DNA from: Thermodesulfobacteriota bacterium
GTDB lineage: Bacteria > Desulfobacterota > Desulfobacteria > Desulfobacterales > B30-G6
DNA length: 60,915 bases
Direction of reading: 5' to 3'
NCBI GenBank assembly: GCA_039714495.1
Contig: JBDLJD010000003.1
Span: 1 to 60,915 of the forward strand
A program made the translations under genes and the position numbers. Positions within the stretch are counted from its first letter, which is position 1, and each line of letters begins with the position of its first letter. Below the pieces are notes generated by a model. That model worked only from the letters and a program-made list of their open reading frames with translations, was not told the DNA's origin and searched no databases. Positions 48,993-60,882 of this stretch are shown piece by piece.

Positions 48993-50606
48993 ATGGCAAA
49001 GAGAGCTACCCGTCAATGGCGAATCAATGCAGTTTTGGCCATTATTCTGATGATACTCCTGTGCGGTGTGTCCAGCGTCTTCAGCAGCACTGCCACCGAT
49101 TCCCGGGCGCTGGATGTCGTTTACATCGATCTGCCCCATGTCCCGGGCAACGATAAAATGCCGGGGGTGCCCTTTCCGCACGACCGACACACCCGGGCTC
49201 GGGAAAATAGCAAGGACTGTAGCGCCTGCCATCTTCAGCAGAAAGAGCGTTTTGTCTTCAGGTTCAAAAGGCTGATCGACGGCACGCCTGATGCGGACAT
49301 GGCCGTGTATCACGAGAATTGTGTTGCCTGCCACGCAGAAACCAAAAGCGCCGGTAAGACGTCAGGTCCCCTGGACGGCGACTGCCGCTCCTGCCACACG
49401 ACCGTTTCCGGCGATGCACCGGCCTGGCAACCGATCCGCTTTGACAAGTCCCTGCACTTTCGCCACGTATCGTCCAAAGCCATACGGCCGGGCAACATGT
49501 ACGATGACACCAACTGCAGCGCCTGCCACCATATTTATGATGAGACAATCCAGAAAACTGTCCGCAAAAACGGTACGGAGGAGAGCTGCTTTTACTGCCA
49601 TAAACCCCAAAAGACGGAAAGGTCGCCGTCCATCCGCTGGGCATCGCATGCCTCCTGCGTCAGCTGCCATCAGAGCCTCAAAACCCGCGTCCGGAAAACC
49701 GGGCCCGTGGAGTGTGCCGGGTGCCACGATGCGGCGGTCCAGCAGCAGATCGAGGTGGTAGAAAATATTCCGCGCCTGGAACGCAAGCAGCCCGACACTG
49801 TGCTTTTAGCCAGTTGGATGTCTGCAGACGGCGGTTCTGCGGAAGCCATGAAAAAGGTTATGCAGCCGGTGGCGTTCAATCATGTAGTGCATGAATTTAA
49901 GGCCGACAGCTGCCGGGCTTGTCACCACCAGACCCTGAAAAATTGTGCCCAATGCCACACGGAAACCGGGGATGAAAAAGGCGGCGGGGTGCAGCTGGCC
50001 CGGGCCATGCACAACAGCGTATCAACACACAGCTGCATTGGATGCCACAGGCAGGTAACAATGACGAAAGATTGTGCCGGCTGCCATGCAGCCATGCCCC
50101 AGAAACGGTTTTCTCAGCTTGCCTGCGCCCAATGTCATGCCGTGGACCGTGAAGCCATGGGCCCCTTTCCCATGGCGGCGGAAGAGCGCACGGCTGTGGC
50201 AGAGAACAACCTCAATTCACGCCAGAGAGCCTTCATGACCCTTGCGGATGAGCACATACCTGAAATCGTAAAAATCGACGGCATGAAGGACAAATATGAG
50301 GCCGTGGATTTTCCCCACCGGCAGATTGTGCGGGCTATTTTTACCAGAATTAAAGAAAACAAGATGGCGGCCTATTTTCACGGCAACGATGTCACCCTGT
50401 GCGCCGGTTGCCACCACAACGCCCCGGCCACGCTCAATCCGGCAAGGTGTGCCGCGTGCCATGGAAAGGCTTTTACCAATGATGAGGATGGACGGCCGGG
50501 ACTCAAGGGGGCCTACCACGGTCAGTGCATGGCCTGCCATGAGGCGATGGGCATTGAAGAACCGGCATCCACTGATTGCATCAAATGCCATAAAGAGAAA
50601 GGATGA
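48993..50606 (+). CDS. hmcA: 16-haem high-molecular-weight cytochrome c
   Basis: Signal peptide, and I count 16 CxxCH motifs in 537 aa. It is the first gene of an Hmc-type six-gene set. Confidence 0.9.
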   Translation: MAKRATRQWRINAVLAIILMILLCGVSSVFSSTATDSRALDVVYIDLPHVPGNDKMPGVPFPHDRHTRARENSKDCSACHLQQKERFVFRFKRLIDGTPDADMAVYHENCVACHAETKSAGKTSGPLDGDCRSCHTTVSGDAPAWQPIRFDKSLHFRHVSSKAIRPGNMYDDTNCSACHHIYDETIQKTVRKNGTEESCFYCHKPQKTERSPSIRWASHASCVSCHQSLKTRVRKTGPVECAGCHDAAVQQQIEVVENIPRLERKQPDTVLLASWMSADGGSAEAMKKVMQPVAFNHVVHEFKADSCRACHHQTLKNCAQCHTETGDEKGGGVQLARAMHNSVSTHSCIGCHRQVTMTKDCAGCHAAMPQKRFSQLACAQCHAVDREAMGPFPMAAEERTAVAENNLNSRQRAFMTLADEHIPEIVKIDGMKDKYEAVDFPHRQIVRAIFTRIKENKMAAYFHGNDVTLCAGCHHNAPATLNPARCAACHGKAFTNDEDGRPGLKGAYHGQCMACHEAMGIEEPASTDCIKCHKEKG

Positions 50607-50619
50607 TTGAGGTAAAGTT

Positions 50620-51720
50620 ATGGGTATAACCCGAAGAAAATTCCTCGGCTGGGTCGGTGCAGCGACAGGAACATCCGTGATGATGGGTAAAAATGCCTCG
50701 GCCGTTTCCAACAAACACTTTGAGGGCTACCCAGGAAGCTTTGGCGTGCTGCATGATACCACCCGGTGCATCGGCTGCCGAAAATGCGAGCAGGCCTGCA
50801 ATACCGTCAATGCGTTGCCCGCTCCGGAAATAGCTTTTGACGACCTGGGCGTGCTGGAGAAGAACCGGCGCACGAGCGATGATGCCTACACGGTGGTTAA
50901 CCATTTCGAAACCGGCCAGGGCACCTTGCCGACGTTTGTCAAGATCCAGTGCAACCACTGCCTGGAGCCTGCCTGCGCATCTGCCTGCTTTGTCAAAGCG
51001 TTCAGAAAGGACAAAACAGGCGCGGTGACGTATGACGAGTCTCTTTGCGTGGGATGCCGGTACTGCATGGTCGCCTGTCCTTTCAACATTCCGGCCTATG
51101 AGTACGACGAGGCGATAACCCCCCGGGTGATGAAGTGCACCCTCTGTAAACCCCGCATTGAAAAAGGCCAGTTGCCGGGGTGTGTGGAAATCTGTCCCAA
51201 GGAAGCCCTGACATTCGGTACGCGCACGCAGCTCATCAAGGAGGCGCGGCGCAGGATCGACCGTTTTCCGGGCCGCTATGTGGACCATGTTTACGGTGAG
51301 AAAGAAATGGGGGGCACGTCGTGGCTCTACCTTAGCGGACAAGCGTTCAACGAAATAGGCCTGCGGGAAGATTTGGGGGTTACACCGGCCCCCAGCCTGA
51401 CCGCCGGTCCTTTGTCGGCGGTTCCCATTATCGTGGGGCTGTGGCCGGTACTGTTGACGGGCATTTGGGCCATATCCAGGCGCAAGGACCAGATCGCCGA
51501 CCAGGAACGCATTTCAGCCGTGGCGGCAACAACGGCTGACGCCAATGAGGAGATGCAGGTCAAGCTGGCGGAGCTGAAGGACAAGCTGAACAAGGAAAAA
51601 GAGGCGGCCATCAATCTGGAGGTCAAGAAAGCGCTGGAGGAAGCGGCAAAGCAGGCAGAGGCGGAAAAAGCGCCGGCAGAAGATGAAGATGCTGCTGAAG
51701 CGCCCAAGGAGGAAAAATAA
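50620..51720 (+). CDS. hmcB: Hmc complex iron-sulfur subunit (4Fe-4S, Tat signal, C-terminal TM anchor)
   Basis: [13 protein letters not shown] Tat motif. Ferredoxin-type clusters [36 protein letters not shown] and CTLCKPR..CVEICP. There is one TM segment and a K/E/A-rich tail. Confidence 0.88.
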
Positions 51721-52893
51721 ATGTCAGACGATACGACCCGTGCTGATACCAGGATATTAACCCCATTCAACGTGATTGCCGGCAGTATCATTCTCGTGGG
51801 CCTGGTATTGACCGTACTGCGCTTCACCAAGGGGATCGGAGCGGTAACCAACCTCGATGACAACAATCCCTGGGGGTTGTGGATCGGCTTTGACCTTCTG
51901 TGCGGTGTGGCCCTGGCAGCAGGCGGGTATGTCACGTCCGCCACCTGCTACATTTTCGGCCTCAAACGCTTTCATTCCGCGGTTAGGCCGGCGATTCTGA
52001 CCGCTTTCCTGGGGTATGCCCTGGTGGTTTTTGCGCTCAACTTCGATGTGGGCCGTCCCTGGCGCCTGCCCTACCCGATTTTCTTTTCCCCGGGGACCAC
52101 GTCCCTGCTCTATGAAGTGGGCTTGTGCGTGTTCCTTTATCTCATGGTCCTGCTCATCGAATACAGTCCGGCCGCCCTGGAGTGGCTGGGTTTCAGGAAA
52201 ATAAGAAATATTATTGTGCGTCTGACCCTGGTGCTGACCATTTTCGGCGTTGTTCTATCCACGCTGCACCAGTCCTCGCTGGGGGCCTTGTTCATGATCG
52301 CACCGTCCAAGCTCCACCCCCTGTGGTATTCGGGATACCTGCCCGTGTACTTTTTTGTTTCCAGCATTTTTGCCGGCATGTCCATGGTGATTTTCGAAGG
52401 CTCCCTGGCGCACCGTTATCTGCACCATAAGATGGATGAAACCCATCTGGCAGAAAGCGAAGGGGTTGCCCTGGGGTTTGCCAAGGCTGCCGCTTTCGTG
52501 ATGATGGGATATGTGGGCATCAAAGTGATCGGTCTGGCCATCGACAACAACTGGCACTACCTGGCCACCGGGTGGGGGGCCTGGTTCCTGGTGGAACTGA
52601 TCGGCTTCGTGGCCTTGCCGGCCTTTGCCTACGCTTTGGCCGCCAGGGAGCGCAACCTGCGCCTGGCAAGGTGGGCGGCGATCTGGTCGGTGTTGGGGCT
52701 GGTCCTCAACCGTTTGAATATTTCCCTGGTGGCATTCAACTGGCACCTGCCGTCGGCAGAGCGCTATTTCCCCAGCTGGATGGAGATTGCCATTTCCGTG
52801 TTCATCGTCACCGTCGGCATCGTGGTTTACCGTTTCATCTCCACCCACATGCCGATTTTGTACGAGCATCCGGATTACCGCCATGAGCATTGA
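51721..52893 (+). CDS. hmcC: Hmc complex integral membrane subunit (NrfD/PsrC family)
   Basis: 390 aa with ~10 TM segments. The ATG directly abuts the hmcB stop codon. Confidence 0.88.
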   Translation: MSDDTTRADTRILTPFNVIAGSIILVGLVLTVLRFTKGIGAVTNLDDNNPWGLWIGFDLLCGVALAAGGYVTSATCYIFGLKRFHSAVRPAILTAFLGYALVVFALNFDVGRPWRLPYPIFFSPGTTSLLYEVGLCVFLYLMVLLIEYSPAALEWLGFRKIRNIIVRLTLVLTIFGVVLSTLHQSSLGALFMIAPSKLHPLWYSGYLPVYFFVSSIFAGMSMVIFEGSLAHRYLHHKMDETHLAESEGVALGFAKAAAFVMMGYVGIKVIGLAIDNNWHYLATGWGAWFLVELIGFVALPAFAYALAARERNLRLARWAAIWSVLGLVLNRLNISLVAFNWHLPSAERYFPSWMEIAISVFIVTVGIVVYRFISTHMPILYEHPDYRHEH

Positions 52894-52916
52894 TAGCCAA
52901 AGTTGAGGAGATTAGA

Positions 52917-53060
52917 ATGGATAGCATTTATTATACCCTGCAGGATTTCATGCTGCATTCAAAAAACATCACCTACATCGTGATGGGTATCGTGCTGATC
53001 GCCCTTCCGCTTTTCTGGCGATTTCTGTCGGGCAGGGACGAGAAAAAAAGGACATATTGA
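52917..53060 (+). CDS. hmcD: Small single-TM membrane protein at the HmcD position
   Basis: 47-aa ORF absent from the supplied track: MDSIYYTLQDFMLHSKNITYIVMGIVLIALPLFWRFLSGRDEKKRTY. GAGGAG lies 7 nt upstream. It sits between the hmcC and hmcE homologues. Confidence 0.6.
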   Translation: MDSIYYTLQDFMLHSKNITYIVMGIVLIALPLFWRFLSGRDEKKRTY

Positions 53061-53077
53061 TATAAACGGAGGATTTC

Positions 53078-53755
53078 ATGTACGGATTCATAACCGGCCC
53101 CCTGTTTTGGCTTTCCATTGCCATATTCGTCACTGGCATGGCCGTGCGTTTTGTGATGTATTTCAAAGGCCTTCACTGGCAGCTGGACCGTGTTGCCTAC
53201 AGGGCCTTTCCCCTGCAGGGGCTGAAAGGGGCCTGGCGGTCTATCTACCGGTGGCTGCTGCCTTTTGGCACCCACAGCTGGCGTAAACAGCCTTTTATGA
53301 CAGTCATATTCTTCGGGTTCCATATCGGTGCTGTCCTGGTGCCTCTTTTTCTGCTGGCGCACAATGTATTTTTAAAGGAGAAGATCGGTTTTTCCCTGGT
53401 CACTCTGAATCCGGCCGTGGCCGATATCCTGACCTGGGCGGTGGTGGTCAGTGCTGTTTTACTGGCCTTGCGGCGGGTAGCCCTGCCCGAAGTCAGAATT
53501 CTGACAACACCATACGACTACTTTATCCTGCTGCTGTCGGTGGCGCCTTTTGTAACCGGTCTCCTGGCCCGGTACGAGGCAGGCAGCTACTCTTTTTGGC
53601 TGGTTCTGCACATTCTTTGTGGGGAAACTCTGCTCATCATGGCGCCCTTTACCAAGCTGTCGCACATTGTTCTGTTCTTTGCTTCCAGGGCGCAGCTGGG
53701 CATGGACTACGGCATCAAGCGGGGGGGGATGAAGAATAAAGGGATGGCCTGGTAA
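53078..53755 (+). CDS. hmcE: Hmc complex membrane cytochrome-b-like subunit (NarI/DsrM/HdrE family)
   Basis: 225 aa, ~5 TM segments, with conserved His in TM segments (FGFHIGAVLVP, LHILCGE, KLSHIV). Confidence 0.85.
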   Translation: MYGFITGPLFWLSIAIFVTGMAVRFVMYFKGLHWQLDRVAYRAFPLQGLKGAWRSIYRWLLPFGTHSWRKQPFMTVIFFGFHIGAVLVPLFLLAHNVFLKEKIGFSLVTLNPAVADILTWAVVVSAVLLALRRVALPEVRILTTPYDYFILLLSVAPFVTGLLARYEAGSYSFWLVLHILCGETLLIMAPFTKLSHIVLFFASRAQLGMDYGIKRGGMKNKGMAW

Positions 53756-53964
53756 ACTTGAATCGTGCATGAAATTTAGTGAGAAACAATTTTAAAAATT
53801 AATACAGAGAAATGTTATGCAAATTTTGAAAAGGAAGGGTGTCTTTTTCTCACCGAAGCGTCAGCGCTATCCAGAAAGCGATTAGCTGAAGGCCCTGGAT
53901 CCCTGCCTGCGCAGGGATGACGATCAAAACACCCCGATGGCTCAATTAATTAAAGAGGTAACAT

Positions 53965-55353
53965 ATGCCAGAAGGAACACTCTGCAACAGGCAGCCCATC
54001 GATACCGAAGAAGCCCTGAAGACGCTTTTGGGCGATACCGGCGGGAAAACCTACTACGGTGAGATGAAGTCGCTGGATGTCGACACCGATCTCCTGTGGA
54101 CCACCATCCAGAACACCCTGAAATCCAGGATGAAGACCTGGCTTGAAATTTGTGCCCACTGTGGAATGTGTGCCGACAGCTGCTTTCTATACCTGATCAA
54201 CAATCGTGATCCCAAACAGGTGCCGGCGTACAAAATTCAGTCGACCCTGGGGGAACTCGTCAAACGGCAGGGGAAGGTGGACAACGACTTCATGCACATG
54301 GCCATGGAAACCGCCTGGGCCAAGTGCACCTGCTGTAATCGCTGCGGGATGTACTGCCCCCACGGCATCGATATGGGGATCATGTTCGGCTATCTTCGCG
54401 GACTGCTTTACCAGCAGGGTTTCGTACCCTGGGAACTGAAGATCGGGGCAGGCATGCACCGGGTTTACCGGGCCCAGATGGATGTTACCGACGAGGATTT
54501 TGTGGAGACCTTCGAGTGGATGGTCGAGGAGTACGAGGAGGACTATCCCGGGCTGGAGGTTCCGGTGGACGTGGAGGGCGCTGACATCATGTATACGGTC
54601 AATGCCCGGGAGGTGAAGCACTACCCCGAAGATCTGGCCGAGGCGGCCATCCTCTTCCACCTGGCCGGTGAGAGCTGGACTGTGCCCTCCCAGGGCTGGG
54701 AACAGACCAGTCTGGCCATGTTTGCCGGTGACTGGGCGGCCTGTAAAATGCAGGTGGAGAGCGTGTATGCCGCCATGGAGCGCCTCCAACCAAAACGGAT
54801 GGTGGGGACGGAGTGTGGGCACGCCCACCGCGCCACGGTTATTGAAGGGCCCTATTGGGCGGGCAGGAGCACCGGACAACCGCCTGTTGAATCGATCCAC
54901 TACGTCGAGTGGCTGGCTGAGGCGCTGCGCGAAGGTAAACTCAAGATAGACCCGGCCAAGCGCATCAAGCGTCCGGTGACATTGCAGGATTCCTGCAACT
55001 ATGTACGCAACCACGGCTTGAAAGAAATCACCCGGGAAATCATGAGCTATATCGTTGAGCCGGGGTTTTTCAGGGATATGGCGCCCAACCGGGAGCACAA
55101 CTATTGTTGCGGCGGTGGCGGTGGGTTCAACGGGATAGGCGTTTTCAGGGCCCAGCGCAACCAGGCCCTGATTACCAAGCGAGACCAGATTCTCAACACC
55201 GGCGCGGGCCTGGTGATCGCTCCCTGCCACAACTGCTGGGATGCCATACGGGATCTCGAGGAGGAGTATAAAATCGGTATCGAGTGGTCATTTTTAAAAC
55301 CGCTCGTTATCAGCATGGTCGAAATACCTGAGCATTTGCAACTCAAAGAATAG
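53965..55353 (+). CDS. hmcF: Hmc complex cytoplasmic Fe-S subunit (HdrD/DsrK-like, CCG domain)
   Basis: [11 protein letters not shown] and [12 protein letters not shown] cluster motifs, plus CCGGGGGF and PCHNC CCG-domain motifs. Confidence 0.9.
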
Positions 55354-55393
55354 GGTGCGGATCGGCACACCGCAACCGTAAACGAGGTGACCT

Positions 55394-56296
55394 ATGTTTA
55401 AGAAAATATTGTTCGCCACATCCGCGACAGAAGCGAGTGACCACGCGGCACGGGTAGCATTCAACATGGCCCGTAACTATAAGGCGCACCTTTCCATTTT
55501 TCATGTGCTGGGAGTTCCCACGCGCGGGTTCAGCCAGGTGGTGCTGGACGTCAAGACCAAGCAGGAGGTGGTGCTGGACGACGAATATGTGGCCTGGGTC
55601 GAAGAGGAGGTCAAAACGCACTACGCCAAGCAGCTCGAAACGGCAGACGATTACGACATCAAGGTCGCCATCGGGTTTCCGCACCGTGAAATCCTGCGGG
55701 AAGCCCGGCAGCATAAACCCGATCTGATCGTGCTGGGCGGCACCACCGGGGACCCGGAGGACTCTGTTTACAAGAAAGGCATGGTCGGTTCGACGCTGCA
55801 GCGGGTGGCCAAGGCGGCGCCCTGTCCTACGCTGGTGGTAAACCGGCCGGCTGCATCTTTCTGGGGCGGGATGTCCAACATCGTTTTCGGGGCTGATTTT
55901 TCAAAAGCGTCGGACAAGGCCTTTGACTTCACCGTCAAGCTGGCCAAGGCGCAGGGGTGTGAGGTGCACATATTCCACGCCCTGGACATCAGCGCGATGC
56001 ACATGGGGCGCATGCTGACCCAGGATGAAATTGAATCGGGAATCAGGAAGTCGCTGCGGCGCATTCGCGGCAGATATGTAGCCAAGATCAAAGACGATAT
56101 AAAGGACTACGGTTTTGATGTATGGGAAGGGGTGCCGTATGTTGAAATCGTGAAGTACGCCCGGGAAAAACATGCGGACTTGATCGTCATGGCCCACCAT
56201 ACCAGCCGGACATCCGATGAGGATAACCGGCTGGGCAGCAATATTGAACAGGTGATTGTCCGGGCAGGCTGTCCGGTTATAAGCGTAAACAAATAA
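55394..56296 (+). CDS. Tandem universal stress protein (UspA) domain protein
   Basis: Two Usp-like halves (MFKKILFATS..DLIVLGG ; NIVFGADFS..DLIVMAHH..GSNIEQVIVRAGCPV). Confidence 0.87.
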   Translation: MFKKILFATSATEASDHAARVAFNMARNYKAHLSIFHVLGVPTRGFSQVVLDVKTKQEVVLDDEYVAWVEEEVKTHYAKQLETADDYDIKVAIGFPHREILREARQHKPDLIVLGGTTGDPEDSVYKKGMVGSTLQRVAKAAPCPTLVVNRPAASFWGGMSNIVFGADFSKASDKAFDFTVKLAKAQGCEVHIFHALDISAMHMGRMLTQDEIESGIRKSLRRIRGRYVAKIKDDIKDYGFDVWEGVPYVEIVKYAREKHADLIVMAHHTSRTSDEDNRLGSNIEQVIVRAGCPVISVNK

Positions 56297-56412
56297 CCCC
56301 AAGGTTGCATAAACAACATGGTAAAAATAAGCTATCGGAATATCGACGACACAGCTCCTGTCCATTCACCGATAAGGGCAACCGGACCGGGAGAATCGAA
56401 AGAGAGGAACCA

Positions 56413-56760
56413 ATGAAAAAAATACTGATTGTCGATGATGACCCCAATATCGTTGACTACCTGGTCACATTTTTTGAAGACAATGGATATGCGACCTGCT
56501 CGGCCAACAACGCCCAGGATGGGTTTGAAGTTGCCAAAAAGGAAGTGCCGGACCTGATTACCCTGGACCTGGAAATGCCCGGAGAATGGGGACCCCGTCT
56601 GTATCGGAAAATAAGCGAGGAAAAAAGCCTGAAGAATATTCCAGTGGTCGTCATTACAGGGTTTTCCGGCAGTGAACATGCCATTGGAAAAGCGGTGGCC
56701 AGCCTGACCAAGCCGTTTGACCGGGATGAATTGCTGGCAATCGTCAAGGAATCTATCTAG
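56413..56760 (+). CDS. Stand-alone response regulator receiver (CheY-like)
   Basis: Start at MKKILIVDDDP after an AGAGAGG SD. It has a DLITLDLEMPGE phospho-acceptor region and a LTKPF motif. It occupies the position of rrf1 in the Desulfovibrio hmc locus. Confidence 0.87.
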   Translation: MKKILIVDDDPNIVDYLVTFFEDNGYATCSANNAQDGFEVAKKEVPDLITLDLEMPGEWGPRLYRKISEEKSLKNIPVVVITGFSGSEHAIGKAVASLTKPFDRDELLAIVKESI

Positions 56761-56783
56761 ATGGTCACAACGGGTAACGACAT

Positions 56784-58316
56784 ATGGCAACTGAGATACT
56801 GCTCATAGACAAGGACAACAGCCACGCCGATGCTTTGGGTGTTTACCTGGAGCGCCAGCAGTTCGAGGTGTACAAGGCCGGCAGTCCTGATGAGGCGATA
56901 ACTTTTTTCGACAATCTGAGTATGGATATCGTTCTGGCCGACCCGGGATTGCCGGACACGGACACCGCCCACCTGTTGAAGCAGATAAAGGGTTCGCACC
57001 CGGGCATTCAGCTCATTATCATGTGCACCGACGACAGCCTCGACCAGGCCATGGATCTGCTAAAGCAGGATGTGGTCCACTACCTGGTGAAGCCGGTGAA
57101 GAGCGCCGCCCTCGACCTTGCCCTGAAACAGGCGCGCACCTGGATTACCATGAACAAAAAGGTCCAGAGGTATGAAAAAAAATACAAAGACCTGCGCAAC
57201 GCCCAGACCCTTTATCAACAGCTTTTTGACGAGGTGCCCTGCTATATTTCAGTACAGGACCGTGAGTTCCGGCTTACAGCCACCAACCGGATGTTCAAAC
57301 GTGATTTTGGCGATGAAATCGGATCCTACTGCTACGAAGTGTACAAGCACAGGGGGTCCCCCTGCCGGAACTGTCCGGTGGCGGCGACCTTTGAAGACGG
57401 CCTGCCCCATCCCACGGAAGAGATCGTCACCTCGAAATCCGGCAAACATTACAATGTGTTGACCTGGACAGCCCCCATCCGGAACACGGAGGGTGAGGTT
57501 ACCCAGGTGATGGAGATGTCCACCAATATCACCCTCCTGCGGCAGCTCCAGGATCATCTGACATCCCTGGGCCTTATGATCGGCTCCATGTCCCATGGGG
57601 TCAAGGGGATGCTGACCGCCCTGGACGGTGGAATCTACCAGTTGGAGACAGGCCTGGCCCGCCAGGATGAAAAACGAACCGCTAAGGCTTTCGAGCAGGT
57701 GAAGCAGATGACGGGCCGGATCCGAAAGATGGTTCTGGAAATACTGTATTATGCCAAATCCCGGGAGCTCAGCTACAAATCCGTGGATATTTCCAGGATG
57801 GCTGAAAAGGTGTTCGGTGATGCCAAGGCCATTGCCGACAAGAACGGGGTGGTGCTGAAGGCCGATATTGCAGATGACCTGGGCCTCGTGGAAGTGGATA
57901 CCAACTGGATGCAGGCGGCACTGGTCAATTTCATGGAAAATGCCGTGGATGCCTGTACCTACGATCAAAGCAAACAGGACCATATCGTTGACTTCACGGT
58001 GTTTAACCAGGGCAATGACCGCATCTGCTTCATCATCGAGGACAACGGCATGGGCATGGAACGGGAAACACGGGAAAAAATGTTTACCCTTTTCTTTACC
58101 TCCAAAGGATCCCAGGGCACCGGTCTGGGGCTTTTTATCGCCAACCGGGTCATTCAACAGCATGGCGGTACCATCAAGGTTACATCCGAGCCCCAAAAGG
58201 GTACACGGTTCCAGATATGCCTGCCCCGGAAAAAGCCCGAAAACCCCGTAAGGGTGGACGATCCCGGGAAATGGGCCAATAACCTGATAGACAGCCCCGG
58301 CAAAGGCAAGTCATGA
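56784..58316 (+). CDS. Hybrid sensor histidine kinase (N-terminal receiver, PAS-like, HisKA, HATPase)
   Basis: Receiver ILLIDKD..DIVLADPGLPD..VKP. Cys-containing PAS-like segment. H-box SHGVKGML. ATPase boxes NFMENAVDA, DNGMGM and GTGLGLFI. Confidence 0.9.
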   Translation: MATEILLIDKDNSHADALGVYLERQQFEVYKAGSPDEAITFFDNLSMDIVLADPGLPDTDTAHLLKQIKGSHPGIQLIIMCTDDSLDQAMDLLKQDVVHYLVKPVKSAALDLALKQARTWITMNKKVQRYEKKYKDLRNAQTLYQQLFDEVPCYISVQDREFRLTATNRMFKRDFGDEIGSYCYEVYKHRGSPCRNCPVAATFEDGLPHPTEEIVTSKSGKHYNVLTWTAPIRNTEGEVTQVMEMSTNITLLRQLQDHLTSLGLMIGSMSHGVKGMLTALDGGIYQLETGLARQDEKRTAKAFEQVKQMTGRIRKMVLEILYYAKSRELSYKSVDISRMAEKVFGDAKAIADKNGVVLKADIADDLGLVEVDTNWMQAALVNFMENAVDACTYDQSKQDHIVDFTVFNQGNDRICFIIEDNGMGMERETREKMFTLFFTSKGSQGTGLGLFIANRVIQQHGGTIKVTSEPQKGTRFQICLPRKKPENPVRVDDPGKWANNLIDSPGKGKS

Positions 58317-58795
58317 GACTCACGACAAAAAGCAGATACGGTACGCGCCTTATTCTTGATCTGGCGGTCAATGCCCAGAAAGGGCCGGTCCCCCTGGGAG
58401 ATGTTTCCAGGCGCCAGAATATTTCGTTGAAATACCTGGAGCAGTTGATCCGCAAACTGAAGCTGGCCGGGTTGGTAAAAAGCCAGCGTGGGCCGTTCGG
58501 CGGACACATGCTGAACAAGGCTCCGGAGGAGATAACCATCGGGGAAATAGTGCGGACGCTCGAGGAAACCACGGCCATTACCGACTGCTCCGAAAGGGAT
58601 GAAAAACTGTGCGGTGTATGCAACAAGGCCGGGGACTGCCTCTCCCGCTGGGTCTGGATCGAGGCCAGCAACGCCATGTTTGCCCGCCTGGACGAGATAA
58701 CCATCGGCGGGCTGCTTGCAGGCAAACTGGGGCAGTTTGATCTGGAGGCGTCCGAAAAGGGGGACAGGGAAGCTGATAAGGCAAAGGACAAGTAA
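58313..58795 (+). CDS. Rrf2-family transcriptional regulator (Cys-containing, IscR-like)
   Basis: MRLTTKSRYGTRLILDLA winged-helix start and a Cys cluster CSERDEKLCGVCNKAGDC. The ATG overlaps the kinase stop. Its position equals that of rrf2 in the Desulfovibrio vulgaris hmc locus. Confidence 0.9.
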   Translation: MRLTTKSRYGTRLILDLAVNAQKGPVPLGDVSRRQNISLKYLEQLIRKLKLAGLVKSQRGPFGGHMLNKAPEEITIGEIVRTLEETTAITDCSERDEKLCGVCNKAGDCLSRWVWIEASNAMFARLDEITIGGLLAGKLGQFDLEASEKGDREADKAKDK

Positions 58796-59004
58796 GCCCT
58801 TGGCCCCTGGTATTCTCCAACTTTTTGGAGAAGAACCAAAAAAAAGGTCACCATCAACAACACTCAGGATAAATGGTGGCATATTCTAGCAGGAGATATC
58901 ATATCACCAAAGACCTGTCTGGATTCACTATCTACATACCTCAATAATCGATCATAATTTTGATGTTGACTATTTACAGTATATTTAGTATCTGCTTAAT
59001 AACA

Positions 59005-59098
59005 TTTAGATCGAAAGGGCAAATCCGTTGAAAGGCGGGGACGCAAAGCCACGGGTCTACAGTTTGCAAAAACTATGATAGCCGGGTTGCCGAAGTGA
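59005..59098 (+). promoter_or_regulatory. c-di-GMP-I (GEMM-I) riboswitch aptamer
   Basis: AAAGGGCAAAUCCGUUGAAAGGCGGGGACGCAAAGCCACGGG...AUAGCCGGGUUGCCGAAG reproduces the conserved GEMM-I cores (GGGCAAA, GNRA loop, GGGACGCAAAGCC, GGGUUGCCGA). It lies in a 5' leader. Confidence 0.85.
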
Positions 59099-59106
59099 CG
59101 TACTCC

Positions 59107-59139
59107 AGCCTTTGGGGATAAACTCCCGAAGGCTTTTTT
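59107..59139 (+). terminator. Intrinsic terminator forming the riboswitch expression platform
   Basis: AGCCUUUGGGG pairs with CUCCCGAAGGCU and is followed by a U-run (59135-59139). It sits between the aptamer and the SD/ATG at 59210. Confidence 0.7.
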
Positions 59140-59209
59140 ATGTGGCAACCAGGCCCCTACGTTGCAACATTGGGGAAGATCTATTCAAATCAAAGCGGAG
59201 GAGGTACGT

Positions 59210-60814
59210 ATGCGGAAGTTGAAAACGGTGTGTTCAGTTTTATTGATGGCGATCTTTCTGGTAACAATATCATGCGGTGGTGGCAGCAGTTCGTCAGAGA
59301 CTCCTATTACTGGCCTTGCGGTGGACGCCGGACCGGATCAGACTGTTGCTTTGGGCAACACCGTAACTCTTGACGGTAGCCGGAGCTCAGCCCTGGAAGG
59401 ACCGATAACCTATGCATGGTCTTTTGAATCAAAGCCCACCGGGAGCATAGCTGAGCTAGATGATCCTTCGGCAGAAAGCCCGGTATTCATAGCAGACGCT
59501 TCTGGCACATATGAACTGAGCCTTGTCATAAGTGACGGCGAACATTTCAGCGATCCTGATCATATCATCATCTCTGTAAAATCCTGGAAAGGCGCCAATT
59601 TAATTGAAGCAGAGGCAGGTGATGCCAGTGGAGGCAAGGTGGCTATTGCCGCAAACGGTGATGCATTCGCGGTCTGGGAACAGGATGATCGAATCTACGC
59701 CAATCGGTTTGATGCCGCGTCCGGCACATGGGATGGTGCCGAGCTGATCGATGCTGTAGATTTCACTCCCGAAGGACCCTATGTAGCGGTGGATCCAAAT
59801 GGAAACGCATTCGCAGTCTGGGCTCAATATGACGGAAAATCCAGGAATCTGTATGCCAACCGATATGATGCTGACACCGGTTCCTGGGAAGTCGCGCAGG
59901 AAATCGATGCTGGAGATTATAATGTCCGTGCCCCCCGTATTGCCGTCAATACGAGCGGATATGCCTTCGCGGTATGGTCAGAGTCGGACAGCTCCACTAC
60001 TAATGTCTGTGCCAGCCGCTTTGATGCCACCACTGGCACCTGGGGCAACGCCGAAAAACTCGAGTCACGAATCGAACCCGCCTATGATCCCCGGGTGGCT
60101 GTCGATGCAGACGGAAACGCGTTCGCAGTCTGGGATCAGTCTGATGGTGCCAACAAACGCATCTACGCCAACCGGTATGATAGCGCATCAGGCATGTGGG
60201 AGGGCGCCACAACGATCGATGGCGGGGGACATGATGCCGATTGGTCTCAGGTGGCTATGGATGCAGACGGAAATGCATTCACGGTATGGGTACAGGAGGA
60301 AGGCGTTTCCTATCGTATTTATGCCAACCAATATGATGCTGCTTCGGGTACCTGGGAGGGCGCGGAAGCAACCGGTGCGGAGGGTACTTACATTTCTGAA
60401 ATAGACTTGGCAATGGCTCCGAATGGAAACGTCTTCGTGGTCTGGAACCTGGCTGACAGCAGCATCTATGCTGACCGTTTTGATGCCGCAACTGGTACAT
60501 GGGATGGCACCAAGGCTATCGGAGTAGGAGGTGAAGACGCTTGGACACCAAATGTGGCGGTTGACGCAAAGGGAAATGCTATGGTGGTCTGGTATCAGTA
60601 TGACTTCTTTGATCCTGACTACTATGACAACATCTACGCTAACCGGTACTATGCCGTTTCAGGATCGTGGGATGGTGCCGAGTTGATCGATGCGGGAAAT
60701 CACCCTACGGATGAAGACCCTGCCATAGCTTTTGGTGCAGATGGAAATGCCATCGCAGTTTGGTCACAGGATGACGGAACGAATTATAGCATCTACGCCA
60801 ACAGATACGAGTAA
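59210..60814 (+). CDS. Lipoprotein with a PKD-like domain followed by ~8 tandem 45-55-aa repeats (beta-propeller-like)
   Basis: Start at MRKLKTVCSVLLMAIFLVTISCGGG (lipobox) after GGAGGAGG. The PKD-like segment is VDAGPDQTVALGNTVTLDGSRS..YAWSF..GTYELSLVISDG. Repeats follow the pattern G(N/D)AFAVW..D....IYANR(Y/F)D..(S/T)G(T/S)W. Confidence 0.85.
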   Translation: MRKLKTVCSVLLMAIFLVTISCGGGSSSSETPITGLAVDAGPDQTVALGNTVTLDGSRSSALEGPITYAWSFESKPTGSIAELDDPSAESPVFIADASGTYELSLVISDGEHFSDPDHIIISVKSWKGANLIEAEAGDASGGKVAIAANGDAFAVWEQDDRIYANRFDAASGTWDGAELIDAVDFTPEGPYVAVDPNGNAFAVWAQYDGKSRNLYANRYDADTGSWEVAQEIDAGDYNVRAPRIAVNTSGYAFAVWSESDSSTTNVCASRFDATTGTWGNAEKLESRIEPAYDPRVAVDADGNAFAVWDQSDGANKRIYANRYDSASGMWEGATTIDGGGHDADWSQVAMDADGNAFTVWVQEEGVSYRIYANQYDAASGTWEGAEATGAEGTYISEIDLAMAPNGNVFVVWNLADSSIYADRFDAATGTWDGTKAIGVGGEDAWTPNVAVDAKGNAMVVWYQYDFFDPDYYDNIYANRYYAVSGSWDGAELIDAGNHPTDEDPAIAFGADGNAIAVWSQDDGTNYSIYANRYE

Positions 60815-60840: not shown

Positions 60841-60882
60841 TAATAAGCCATCGGGACGATTATAGATCCCGATGGCTTATTA
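60841..60882 (+). terminator. Strong hairpin after the lipoprotein gene
   Basis: TAATAAGCCATCGGGA (60841-60856) pairs with TCCCGATGGCTTATTA (60867-60882), a 16-bp perfect stem. There is only a weak T-tract. Confidence 0.5.

What the first reader, a model, noticed from the sequence alone, without database searches (positions are those of the whole stretch)
59005..59139. Canonical c-di-GMP-I riboswitch with a terminator platform in front of a repeat lipoprotein
The leader contains all conserved GEMM-I elements in order: AGGGCAAA, a GAAA tetraloop hairpin, GGGACGCAAAGCC, a second hairpin, and GCCGGGUUGCCGAA. A GC-rich hairpin and a U-run (59107-59139) follow immediately, about 70 nt before the start codon, so control is most likely by transcription termination. 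The nucleotide context AGGGCAAA retains the G that I recall as the c-di-GMP (not 3'3'-cGAMP) specificity determinant. However, Desulfobacterota are the clade where cGAMP-selective GEMM-I variants were found, so ligand identity deserves a test.
Basis: partly seen in the sequence, partly recalled or inferred. Interest (0 to 1): 0.65.

Follow-up and report, generated by a model that had tools for sequence, protein, structure and literature searches.

The report
Ordinary c-di-GMP riboswitch, likely OFF switch
This is a textbook class-I cyclic-di-GMP riboswitch followed by a transcription terminator, in front of a surface lipoprotein gene of a marine sulfate-reducing bacterium; it is real and well formed but belongs to a well-known kind.

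Summary
Rfam's c-di-GMP-I model (RF01051) matches window 59008-59094 (+) over its full length at 88.6 bits (gathering score 35, E 3e-16). It is the only Rfam hit in the window. An 11-bp GC-rich hairpin plus U-run (59107-59139) follows 12 nt later. The lipoprotein ORF starts at 59210.

The three ligand-contacting positions are the c-di-GMP type: G59018 (Vc2 G20), A59045 (A47) and C59090 (C92). The cGAMP subclass has A at the first of these, so c-di-GMP is the predicted ligand.

Aptamer and terminator do not overlap. That is the layout of the characterised Cd1 OFF switch, so I infer that ligand binding causes termination. Two candidate anti-terminators exist. Neither beats chance in this sequence alone. 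Across 23 related terminator-bearing GEMM-I leaders, however, the terminator 5' arm is enriched for complementarity to the aptamer 3' tail (combined p about 2e-6).

The cargo is a lipoprotein with a PKD domain and an 8-repeat beta-propeller that resembles lectins and sialidases. This is typical GEMM-I cargo. The host is a Desulfobacterales-type sulfate reducer, and the riboswitch-gene unit is absent from the syntenic site in its relatives.

Verdict: a new member of a known kind, of low interest.

The parts
58931..58958 (+). Promoter-like site (TCTACA, 16 nt spacer, CATAAT). It would put the transcription start about 40 nt before the aptamer. A second candidate seen by eye is TTGACT 58966-58971 with a weak -10.
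   Evidence: 9 of 12 matches. The number of such sites in the region is no higher than in shuffles, so this is only a candidate.
59008..59094 (+). c-di-GMP-I (GEMM-I) aptamer. It comprises the two-pair helix 59019-20/59043-44, the hairpin 59024-59039 with GAAA tetraloop 59030-33, and the helix/hairpin 59047-59088 carrying the tetraloop-receptor variant UCUACA...CUAUGA. Predicted ligand contacts are G59018, A59045 and C59090. Likely P1 pairs are 59011-13/59091-93 and 59003-06/59094-97.
   Evidence: 88.6 bits, full length; P1 pairs appear when the Rfam structure is enforced; contact mapping from PMC6140456 and PMC5888326.
59095..59106 (+). Linker between aptamer and terminator (GUGACGUACUCC). 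It is part of candidate anti-terminator A.
59107..59139 (+). Intrinsic terminator: stem 59107-59117 / 59124-59134, loop 59118-59123, U-run 59135-59139.
   Evidence: (pair probabilities 0.68-1.0); a homologous terminator sits at the same offset in L092/L094.
59031..59113 (+). Candidate anti-terminator A: 59031-59045 (3' strand of the GAAA hairpin plus the GACGCA core, including A59045) pairs with 59096-59113 (linker plus the first 7 nt of the terminator 5' arm). It has 15 pairs and 3 bulges.
   Evidence: It is the minimum-energy fold of transcripts ending at 59110-59130, 2.4-5.3 kcal/mol better than the best aptamer-containing fold. It is not better than chance (695 of 2000 shuffles; 0.15-0.29).
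59086..59119 (+). Candidate anti-terminator B: the aptamer 3' tail 59086-59095 (GUUgCCGAAG, holding the C92-equivalent and the P1 3' strand) pairs with 59110-59119 (CUUUGGgGAU, the terminator 5' arm and loop). It has 9 pairs and one mismatch.
   Evidence: duplex -10.6 kcal/mol, p 0.07 alone; L092 shows the same geometry; the panel-wide enrichment has Fisher p 1.8e-6; it is 3-4 kcal/mol less stable than A on nascent transcripts.
59197..59204 (+). Shine-Dalgarno sequence GGAGGAGG, 5 nt before the ATG.
   Evidence: Sequence.
59210..60814 (+). Regulated gene. It encodes a 534-aa predicted lipoprotein: a signal segment with Cys22, a low-complexity linker, a PKD-like domain (aa 40-123), and an eight-repeat beta-propeller (aa ~125-534).
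   Evidence: K319L-like_PKD 37.5 bits against 27; Cys22 conserved in 90% or more; pLDDT above 90 across the propeller; lectin and sialidase propeller matches.
60841..60882 (+). Perfect 16-bp inverted repeat with a 10-nt loop, 27 nt after the stop codon and without a U-run. It is probably a 3' stem-loop of the lipoprotein transcript.

Best explanation
This is a class-I cyclic-di-GMP riboswitch in the 5' leader of a surface lipoprotein gene, and it works by transcription attenuation. Shown: the aptamer is a full-length, high-scoring GEMM-I member with the c-di-GMP-type contact bases, and a strong intrinsic terminator follows 12 nt later without overlapping it. Inferred: without ligand, the aptamer's 3' tail (helix B) and/or its central strand (helix A) pairs with the terminator's 5' arm while the polymerase is still on the U-run, so transcription reads through into the gene. 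With c-di-GMP bound, P1, the C at 59090 and the core are locked. The 5' arm is then free, the terminator forms and the transcript ends near 59139. High c-di-GMP would therefore switch the lipoprotein OFF. The cargo is a PKD plus eight-bladed propeller lipoprotein, probably a carbohydrate-binding or glycan-acting surface protein.
For: Aptamer identity. Contact bases: G59018, A59045 and C59090 match the G20/A47/C92 positions described in PMC6140456 and PMC5888326. No alternative base at 59018 appears among about 40 near-identical copies in two metagenomes. Terminator. Aptamer and terminator are disjoint and coexist in the global minimum (-40.1 kcal/mol). This is the arrangement reported for the Cd1 OFF switch; in the pilM ON switch the two are mutually exclusive (PMC9262584). 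For nascent transcripts ending at 59110-59130, every low-energy fold already has the 5' arm paired to aptamer sequence, and the terminator wins only from 59132 on. Cd1's anti-terminator is likewise described as only transiently stable. Comparative support: in 23 non-redundant terminator-bearing relatives, the 5' arm plus loop is complementary to the aptamer 3' tail beyond shuffles (mean -11.3 against -8.5 kcal/mol; 9 of 23 at p<=0.05; Fisher p 1.8e-6). The closest relative, L092/L094, keeps the linker/5'-arm stretch TCCAGCCTTTGGG identical, while its two 3'-arm changes preserve pairing. Cargo. The panel's cargo genes are mostly surface or secreted Ig-like proteins and response regulators.
Against: There is no experimental or transcript evidence: no RNA run holds the locus. 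Neither anti-terminator is significant in this sequence alone (p 0.07). I formulated helix B after looking at the panel, so its test is partly post hoc. The panel was selected to share this P2 helix and is not phylogenetically corrected. Folding energies ignore tertiary structure and ligand. The promoter is not established. The nearest homologues of the lipoprotein carry no riboswitch, so conservation cannot confirm the pairing of riboswitch and gene. The join between the upstream flank and the rest of the leader lies inside a sequence repeated many times in the sample.
Confidence: 0.72

Rival explanations
1. Same aptamer, opposite sign: c-di-GMP binding prevents termination (an ON switch), for example through an extended P1 or a tertiary contact that occupies the terminator's 5' arm.
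For: Both signs are known in this class (PMC9262584). Surface adhesin-like proteins are often induced by c-di-GMP (general knowledge). The anti-terminator is not statistically secured here.
Against: The terminator starts 12 nt after the aptamer and shares no nucleotide with P1 or the ligand pocket. With the aptamer enforced, the terminator still forms fully (-39.3 against an unconstrained minimum of -40.1 kcal/mol). I found no complement to the 5' arm in the upstream leader by eye.
Confidence: 0.12
2. The aptamer senses 3'3'-cGAMP, or both dinucleotides, rather than c-di-GMP alone.
For: Rfam's RF01051 covers both subclasses. Some natural members are bispecific (PMC6140456). cGAMP riboswitches were found in Geobacter, which is in the same phylum.
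Against: The discriminating position is G (59018). cGAMP binders carry A there, and wild-type Vc2 with G discriminates against cGAMP (PMC6140456). The A-type relatives in the panel have a distinct UAAUAGCAAAC context, whereas this one has AAAGGGCAAAU. The host is Desulfobacterales-like, not Geobacter. No cGAMP synthase candidate is in the window, although 61 kb says little about the whole genome.
Confidence: 0.05
3. The aptamer is intact, but the element no longer regulates. It would be a constitutive attenuator, or a relic cassette copied in front of a newly acquired gene.
For: The riboswitch-gene unit is absent from the syntenic position in three relatives. A 70%-identical aptamer-terminator cassette precedes an unrelated gene in L092. 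Many near-identical aptamer copies exist in the same samples.
Against: Every conserved position and every pair of the model is intact. The terminator, the Shine-Dalgarno sequence and the ORF are intact and correctly ordered. Being multi-copy is normal for GEMM-I (17 copies in G. sulfurreducens, PMC8835794).
Confidence: 0.08

Closest known systems
Rfam RF01051, c-di-GMP-I (GEMM-I) riboswitch; structural reference Vibrio cholerae Vc2
   Same: It matches the covariance model over its full length at 88.6 bits. It has the same three-helix layout, the GAAA tetraloop, the GACGCAAAGCC core and the G/A/C ligand-contact triad (PMC6140456).
   Different: The tetraloop receptor reads UCUACA instead of the commoner UCUAAA/UCUAAG. 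The CUAC form occurs in about 12 of 124 panel members, so it is a minor natural variant. Here the expression platform is a terminator.
Cd1 riboswitch of Clostridioides difficile (c-di-GMP-I transcriptional OFF switch)
   Same: The aptamer and an intrinsic terminator can coexist, and both compete with a transient anti-terminator that invades the binding pocket (PMC9262584). The energetics here show the same ordering along the transcript.
   Different: The phylum and the cargo differ (flagellar operon there, lipoprotein here). The platform is much shorter here: a 12-nt linker, with the terminator ending 45 nt after the aptamer. The anti-terminator here is only predicted.
GEMM-Ib cGAMP riboswitches (Gs1761, Gm0970/pilM of Geobacter)
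   Same: They share the fold and the Rfam family. They are also followed by terminators and are found in the same phylum.
   Different: They carry A at the position equivalent to Vc2 G20 (PMC6140456), and this RNA carries G. pilM is an ON switch whose terminator overlaps the aptamer (PMC9262584), which is not the case here.
L092/L094 (JGI metagenome contigs Ga0316583_10007045 and Ga0316578_10095638)
   Same: They are 70% identical over aptamer plus platform. The terminator is at the same offset, and the 13-nt stretch TCCAGCCTTTGGG is identical.
   Different: The downstream gene there is a helix-turn-helix plus receiver-domain regulator, not a lipoprotein. The loop and two 3'-arm positions also differ.
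PLL/PHL/CV39L bacterial beta-propeller lectins and sialidase-type propellers (for the cargo protein)
   Same: The predicted propeller of aa 125-534 matches them at Foldseek E about 1e-14, with TM about 0.7 relative to the target. The repeats are tryptophan-rich.
   Different: Sequence identity is only 13-17%. This protein has eight repeats, an added PKD domain and a lipoprotein signal. No sugar-binding or catalytic residues were checked.

Membership tests
c-di-GMP-I riboswitch (Rfam RF01051) | Covariance-model score at or above the curated gathering score | tested here: met
   88.6 bits against 35, E 3e-16, model positions 1-87 of 87.
c-di-GMP-I riboswitch (Rfam RF01051) | All consensus helices can form with standard pairs | tested here: met
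   cmscan flags no non-canonical pair. The Rfam structure evaluates to -19.1 kcal/mol, close to the aptamer's own minimum of -20.6.
c-di-GMP-I riboswitch (Rfam RF01051) | GNRA tetraloop on the first hairpin and a receptor in the second | tested here: met
   GAAA is at 59030-33. The receptor-like UCUACA...CUAUGA has one A-to-C difference from the commonest form, and the same variant recurs in the panel. Docking itself was not tested.
c-di-GMP-I riboswitch (Rfam RF01051) | Ligand-contacting bases equivalent to Vc2 G20, A47 and C92 | tested here: met
   G59018, A59045 and C59090 sit at model positions 11, 38 and 83. The mapping rests on the spacing reported in PMC6140456 and PMC5888326, so it is by alignment and not by structure.
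c-di-GMP-I riboswitch (Rfam RF01051) | Sits in a 5' leader on the coding strand, followed by an expression platform | tested here: met
   It lies in a 415-nt intergenic region, 116 nt upstream of the ATG at 59210 on the same strand, with a terminator in between.
c-di-GMP-I riboswitch (Rfam RF01051) | Binds c-di-GMP and changes gene expression | not testable with these tools
   This needs in-line probing or ITC and transcription assays. No RNA runs are available.
GEMM-Ib (3'3'-cGAMP riboswitch subclass) | Adenine at the position equivalent to Vc2 G20 (A14 in Gs1761) | tested here: not met
   G is at 59018. Ten panel members have A, and this one does not.
Cd1-type transcriptional OFF switch | Aptamer and terminator are compatible with each other (no shared nucleotides) | tested here: met
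   The aptamer ends at 59094 and the terminator starts at 59107. Both are present in the full-length minimum-energy fold.
Cd1-type transcriptional OFF switch | An anti-terminator that sequesters the terminator's 5' arm and disrupts the binding pocket | tested here: inconclusive
   There are two candidates, A and B. Neither is significant alone (p 0.07). The panel-level enrichment for type B has Fisher p 1.8e-6.
Bacterial lipoprotein | N-terminal signal segment ending in a lipobox cysteine | tested here: inconclusive
   The N-terminus reads MRKLKTVCSVLLMAIFLVTISC|GGGSS. The model predicts a helix over aa 2-18, and Cys22 is conserved in 90% or more of 35 homologues. The -3 residue is Thr rather than Leu, and no dedicated predictor was run. 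NCBIfam PDIAV_lipo scores 57 bits, below its cut-off of 90.
PKD domain | Pfam score above the gathering threshold | tested here: met
   K319L-like_PKD scores 37.5 bits against 27 over aa 40-123. The structural model is poor in this region (pLDDT about 40-57).

The most novel reading that the evidence does not exclude
The most novel reading not excluded is that this is one of many near-identical GEMM-I aptamer-terminator cassettes in a single Desulfobacterales genome. The depth of the shared 42-nt core is about 6-7 times that of the contig, with further variants at equal depth. Under this reading the cassettes have been copied as a portable module in front of unrelated, recently acquired surface and regulatory genes. 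That would amount to a large c-di-GMP RNA regulon in a marine sulfate reducer, built by cassette duplication. A subset of the copies, despite carrying G at the key position, might respond to a different dinucleotide.
Probability: 0.12. Interest if true: 0.45.

Novelty: new member of a known kind. Interest (0 to 1): 0.17.

Why it matters
The finding gives a clean, testable example of c-di-GMP control by RNA in a marine Desulfobacterales-type sulfate reducer. In that group, to my knowledge (no systematic literature search beyond), second-messenger regulation of surface proteins is little studied. It also suggests that a PKD-propeller surface lipoprotein is shut off when c-di-GMP is high. The compact 45-nt platform would be a convenient model OFF switch. 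Otherwise it confirms what is already known about GEMM-I: it sits before surface or secreted proteins and regulators, occurs in many copies, and discriminates its ligand at one base.

Tried and rejected
1. Conservation of the riboswitch in front of homologues of the lipoprotein. The nearest relatives are only about 50% identical. Their loci (L001-L007) contain no RF01051 hit.

2. Conservation at the syntenic site. The cluster hmcA-F, usp, response regulator, kinase and rrf2 is conserved in L008-L010, but the gene after rrf2 differs in each, and no riboswitch is present.

3. Statistical support for anti-terminator A. The RNAduplex test against shuffled linkers gave 695 of 2000 as good or better. 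The terminator-preserving randomisation gave 0.15-0.29. I therefore rejected A as evidence and keep it only as a possibility.

4. RNA-seq evidence. No runs hold the locus, and only two marine metagenome DNA runs do.

5. Primary papers. Kellenberger 2015, Nelson 2015 and Sudarsan 2008 are not held. A search for the Vc2 sequence string found nothing. The numbering map therefore rests on secondary descriptions.

6. DNA-level tandem repeats in the gene. None were found. The repeats are visible only at protein level.

7. Cyclic-dinucleotide enzymes or PilZ genes among the window's large ORFs. None were found.

8. An ON-switch layout. I rejected this as the leading model because the aptamer and terminator share no nucleotides.

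Full report
OBSERVATION. A scan of the whole window, both strands, against Rfam 15 at gathering thresholds returns one hit. It is RF01051 (c-di-GMP-I) at 59008-59094 on the + strand, covering model positions 1-87 of 87, at 88.6 bits against a gathering score of 35 and E 3e-16, with no non-canonical pair flagged. The consensus scan finds an intrinsic-terminator-like site at 59107-59134 (11 pairs, 6 of them G-C, loop of 6) followed by TTTTT. In a partition-function fold of 59000-59140 those pairs have probability 0.68-1.0. The downstream ORF is best started at ATG 59210, which has GGAGGAGG 5 nt upstream. It ends at TAA 60812-60814 and encodes 534 aa.

LIGAND. The literature held here states that in Vc2 the ligand's G-alpha is read by G20, G-beta pairs with C92, and A47 contacts the ligand. 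It also states that cGAMP-selective GEMM-Ib RNAs replace G20 by A (A14, with A41 and C75, in Gs1761), and that wild-type Vc2 discriminates against cGAMP while the G20A mutant binds both (PMC6140456, PMC5888326). In the cmscan alignment, the G that directly precedes the two-pair G-C/C-G helix is model position 11. The A directly after that helix is position 38, and the conserved C near the 3' end is position 83. These spacings (27 and 72) equal G20-A47 and G20-C92. In the window the three positions are G59018, A59045 and C59090. The mapping is by alignment and published numbering, not by structure.

I retrieved 120 metagenome loci that share this P2 helix. The base at that position is G in 104 and A in 10, and could not be resolved in 6. 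All the A-type members have a UAAUAGCAAAC-like context, unlike the AAAGGGCAAAU here. About 40 near-identical copies of the aptamer's 5' half in two metagenome runs show no alternative base at 59018. The predicted ligand is therefore c-di-GMP. Binding was not and cannot be tested here.

EXPRESSION PLATFORM. The aptamer ends at 59094 and the terminator stem begins at 59107. They share no nucleotide, and both are present in the full-length minimum-energy structure (-40.1 kcal/mol). Landgraf et al. (PMC9262584) describe exactly this distinction. In the Cd1 c-di-GMP OFF switch, the aptamer and terminator can coexist and compete with a transiently stable anti-terminator. In the pilM cGAMP ON switch, they are mutually exclusive. 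On architecture, this leader is of the Cd1 type, so ligand binding should promote termination.

Folding of successively longer transcripts shows the following. From 59110 to 59130, the lowest-energy fold is not the aptamer. It is a helix (A) between 59031-59045 (the 3' strand of the GAAA hairpin plus the GACGCA core) and 59096-59113 (the linker plus the first 7 nt of the terminator 5' arm). Helix A is 2.4-5.3 kcal/mol better than the best aptamer-containing fold. From 59132 on, the terminator wins.

I tested whether helix A is more than chance in two ways, and it is not. Shuffled linkers pair as well with the aptamer in 695 of 2000 trials. Randomised platforms that keep a terminator of the same composition do as well in 15-29% of trials.

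A second helix (B) pairs the aptamer's 3' tail 59086-59095 with 59110-59119. The tail holds the C92-equivalent and the 3' strand of P1. Helix B has 9 pairs and one mismatch and scores -10.6 kcal/mol as a duplex (p 0.07 against shuffles), and it is 3-4 kcal/mol weaker than A on nascent transcripts. Its support is comparative. In 23 non-redundant panel members that have a terminator, the 5' arm plus loop is more complementary to the aptamer's 3' tail than shuffles (mean -11.3 against -8.5 kcal/mol, and -6.3 for the 3' arm). Nine of the 23 are individually at p<=0.05, and the Fisher combined p is 1.8e-6. Many of them carry CUUCGGCA or CUUUGG in that arm.

The closest relative of this leader is L092, which is identical to L094. 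It is 70% identical over aptamer plus platform and has its terminator at the same 12-nt offset. It keeps TCCAGCCTTTGGG unchanged, while its two 3'-arm differences preserve pairing (G-C to G-U, U-G to U-A). These tests carry caveats. I formulated helix B after seeing the panel. The panel was selected on the P2 sequence and is not corrected for relatedness. L092 is effectively one independent comparison. The sign of regulation (OFF) is therefore an inference from layout plus family-level evidence, and which strand does the switching is unresolved.

CARGO AND CONTEXT. The protein starts MRKLKTVCSVLLMAIFLVTISC|GGGSSSS. Cys22 is conserved in at least 90% of 35 homologues. Residues 40-123 match the K319L-like PKD domain (37.5 bits against 27). 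The rest consists of eight tryptophan-rich repeats of about 52 aa. An AlphaFold2 model built on 35 homologues has mean pLDDT 83.6, with blocks mostly above 90 from residue 125 to the end, and is poor over the PKD region. Foldseek against the PDB puts the PLL/PHL/CV39L propeller lectins first (E about 1e-14, TM about 0.7 relative to the target, 13-17% identity), followed by bacterial sialidases. A lectin-like or glycan-acting surface protein is a reasonable guess and no more than that.

The first downstream ORFs of 100 panel riboswitches are dominated by response regulators (10) and by Ig-like, fn3, PKD, lectin-like and protease domains of secreted proteins. This cargo is therefore typical for the class.

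Upstream on the same strand lie a multihaem cytochrome, an Fe-S protein, an NrfD-like protein, a membrane subunit and HmcF, then a universal stress protein, a response regulator, a hybrid kinase and an Rrf2 regulator (48993-58795). HmcF is 80-92% identical to proteins named HmcF from Desulfobacula, Desulfosarcina and other Desulfobacterales. The window thus comes from a Desulfobacterales-type sulfate reducer in marine metagenomes.

In three relatives the whole hmc-to-rrf2 cluster is syntenic, but the gene after rrf2 differs each time and no GEMM-I is present. The nearest homologues of the lipoprotein (about 50% identity) also lack a riboswitch. The unit is therefore lineage-specific. The L092 cassette precedes an unrelated HTH-receiver gene.

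ASSEMBLY CHECK. Independent contigs from two runs cover 58392/58651-59036 (X2 and X1 respectively). In X2 one contig covers 59030-59753 exactly, so the aptamer's 3' part, the terminator and the start of the gene are linked. The contigs break inside 59002-59059 because that stretch is shared at 90% or better by 39 (X1) and 27 (X2) other contigs with different flanks. Summed depth there reaches 2689 against a baseline of 22-29 in X1. An exact 42-nt core unitig has depth 163, and two variant copies have depth 21.6 and 24.5, which matches this contig. This suggests several paralogous copies in the same genome, although other organisms may contribute. It leaves a small risk that the upstream flank (promoter, rrf2) and the cargo were joined wrongly. 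It does not affect the link between riboswitch, terminator and gene.

COMPARISON AND NOVELTY. The element works like, and passes every sequence-testable criterion for, a c-di-GMP-I riboswitch. It fails the defining criterion of the cGAMP subclass. Its platform has the layout of Cd1-type OFF switches. The only departures are a minor receptor variant (CUAC for CUAA, present in about 10% of the panel) and a very compact platform. It is a new member of a known kind, and a specialist would not be surprised by it.

CONFIDENCE. GEMM-I aptamer: about 0.98. c-di-GMP as the ligand: about 0.9. Termination-based control: about 0.85. OFF direction: about 0.75. The overall statement as written: 0.72.

Noticed in passing
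window 59002-59059 (runs X1, X2): The aptamer's 5' half is massively multi-copy in the two marine metagenomes that hold this contig. At 90% or better, 39 and 27 contigs pile on it with different AT-rich upstream flanks. Summed depth is about 90 times the baseline. An exact 42-nt core unitig sits at about 6-7 times this contig's depth, and two variants have equal depth. This suggests a multi-copy GEMM-I family in this genome or community.
   Followed up: partly
window 48993-58795: A complete hmc-type gene cluster (multihaem cytochrome, Fe-S protein, NrfD-like protein, small and membrane subunits, HmcF) is followed by a universal stress protein, a response regulator, a hybrid receiver-PAS-kinase and an Rrf2 regulator. 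The cluster is syntenic in three Desulfobacterales relatives (L008-L010), and synteny ends exactly at rrf2.
   Followed up: partly
L092 3365-3500 and L094: An aptamer-plus-terminator cassette 70% identical to the window's, with an identical 13-nt linker/5'-arm, sits in front of an unrelated HTH plus receiver-domain gene. In L092 the terminator loop and 3' arm (GUUUGCCC) is also a perfect complement of the aptamer's GGGCAAAC.
   Followed up: partly
L001 8519-14021: The two closest homologues of the lipoprotein (about 50% identity) lie in tandem, two genes downstream of a PilZ-domain gene, with no riboswitch. This hints at a c-di-GMP link through a protein receptor instead.
   Followed up: no
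window 60841-60882: A perfect 16-bp inverted repeat with a 10-nt loop lies 27 nt after the lipoprotein stop codon, without a U-run. The contig ends 33 nt later.
   Followed up: partly
L127 (three copies within about 1.3 kb) and L026 (two copies): Several GEMM-I aptamers with the same P2 helix are clustered on one short contig.
   Followed up: no
L020, L060, L099, L126, L117 and others: Ten of 120 panel loci carry A at the specificity position in a UAAUAGCAAAC context, so they are candidate cGAMP-type members. Several have closely similar terminators (AACUGUAUGC...).
   Followed up: no
window 59065-59225 in run X1: The X1 contigs cover both sides but not this stretch (the aptamer's second hairpin to the gene start), while X2 covers it exactly. 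The cause could be strain variation or an assembly drop-out.
   Followed up: no
window 222-29618: The first half of the window encodes an MttB-family methyltransferase, amino-acid ABC transporter parts, aldehyde:ferredoxin oxidoreductase, 2-oxoacid:ferredoxin oxidoreductase subunits, a proline racemase and several FAD-dependent (DAO) oxidoreductases. This looks like an amino-acid or osmolyte catabolism neighbourhood.
   Followed up: no
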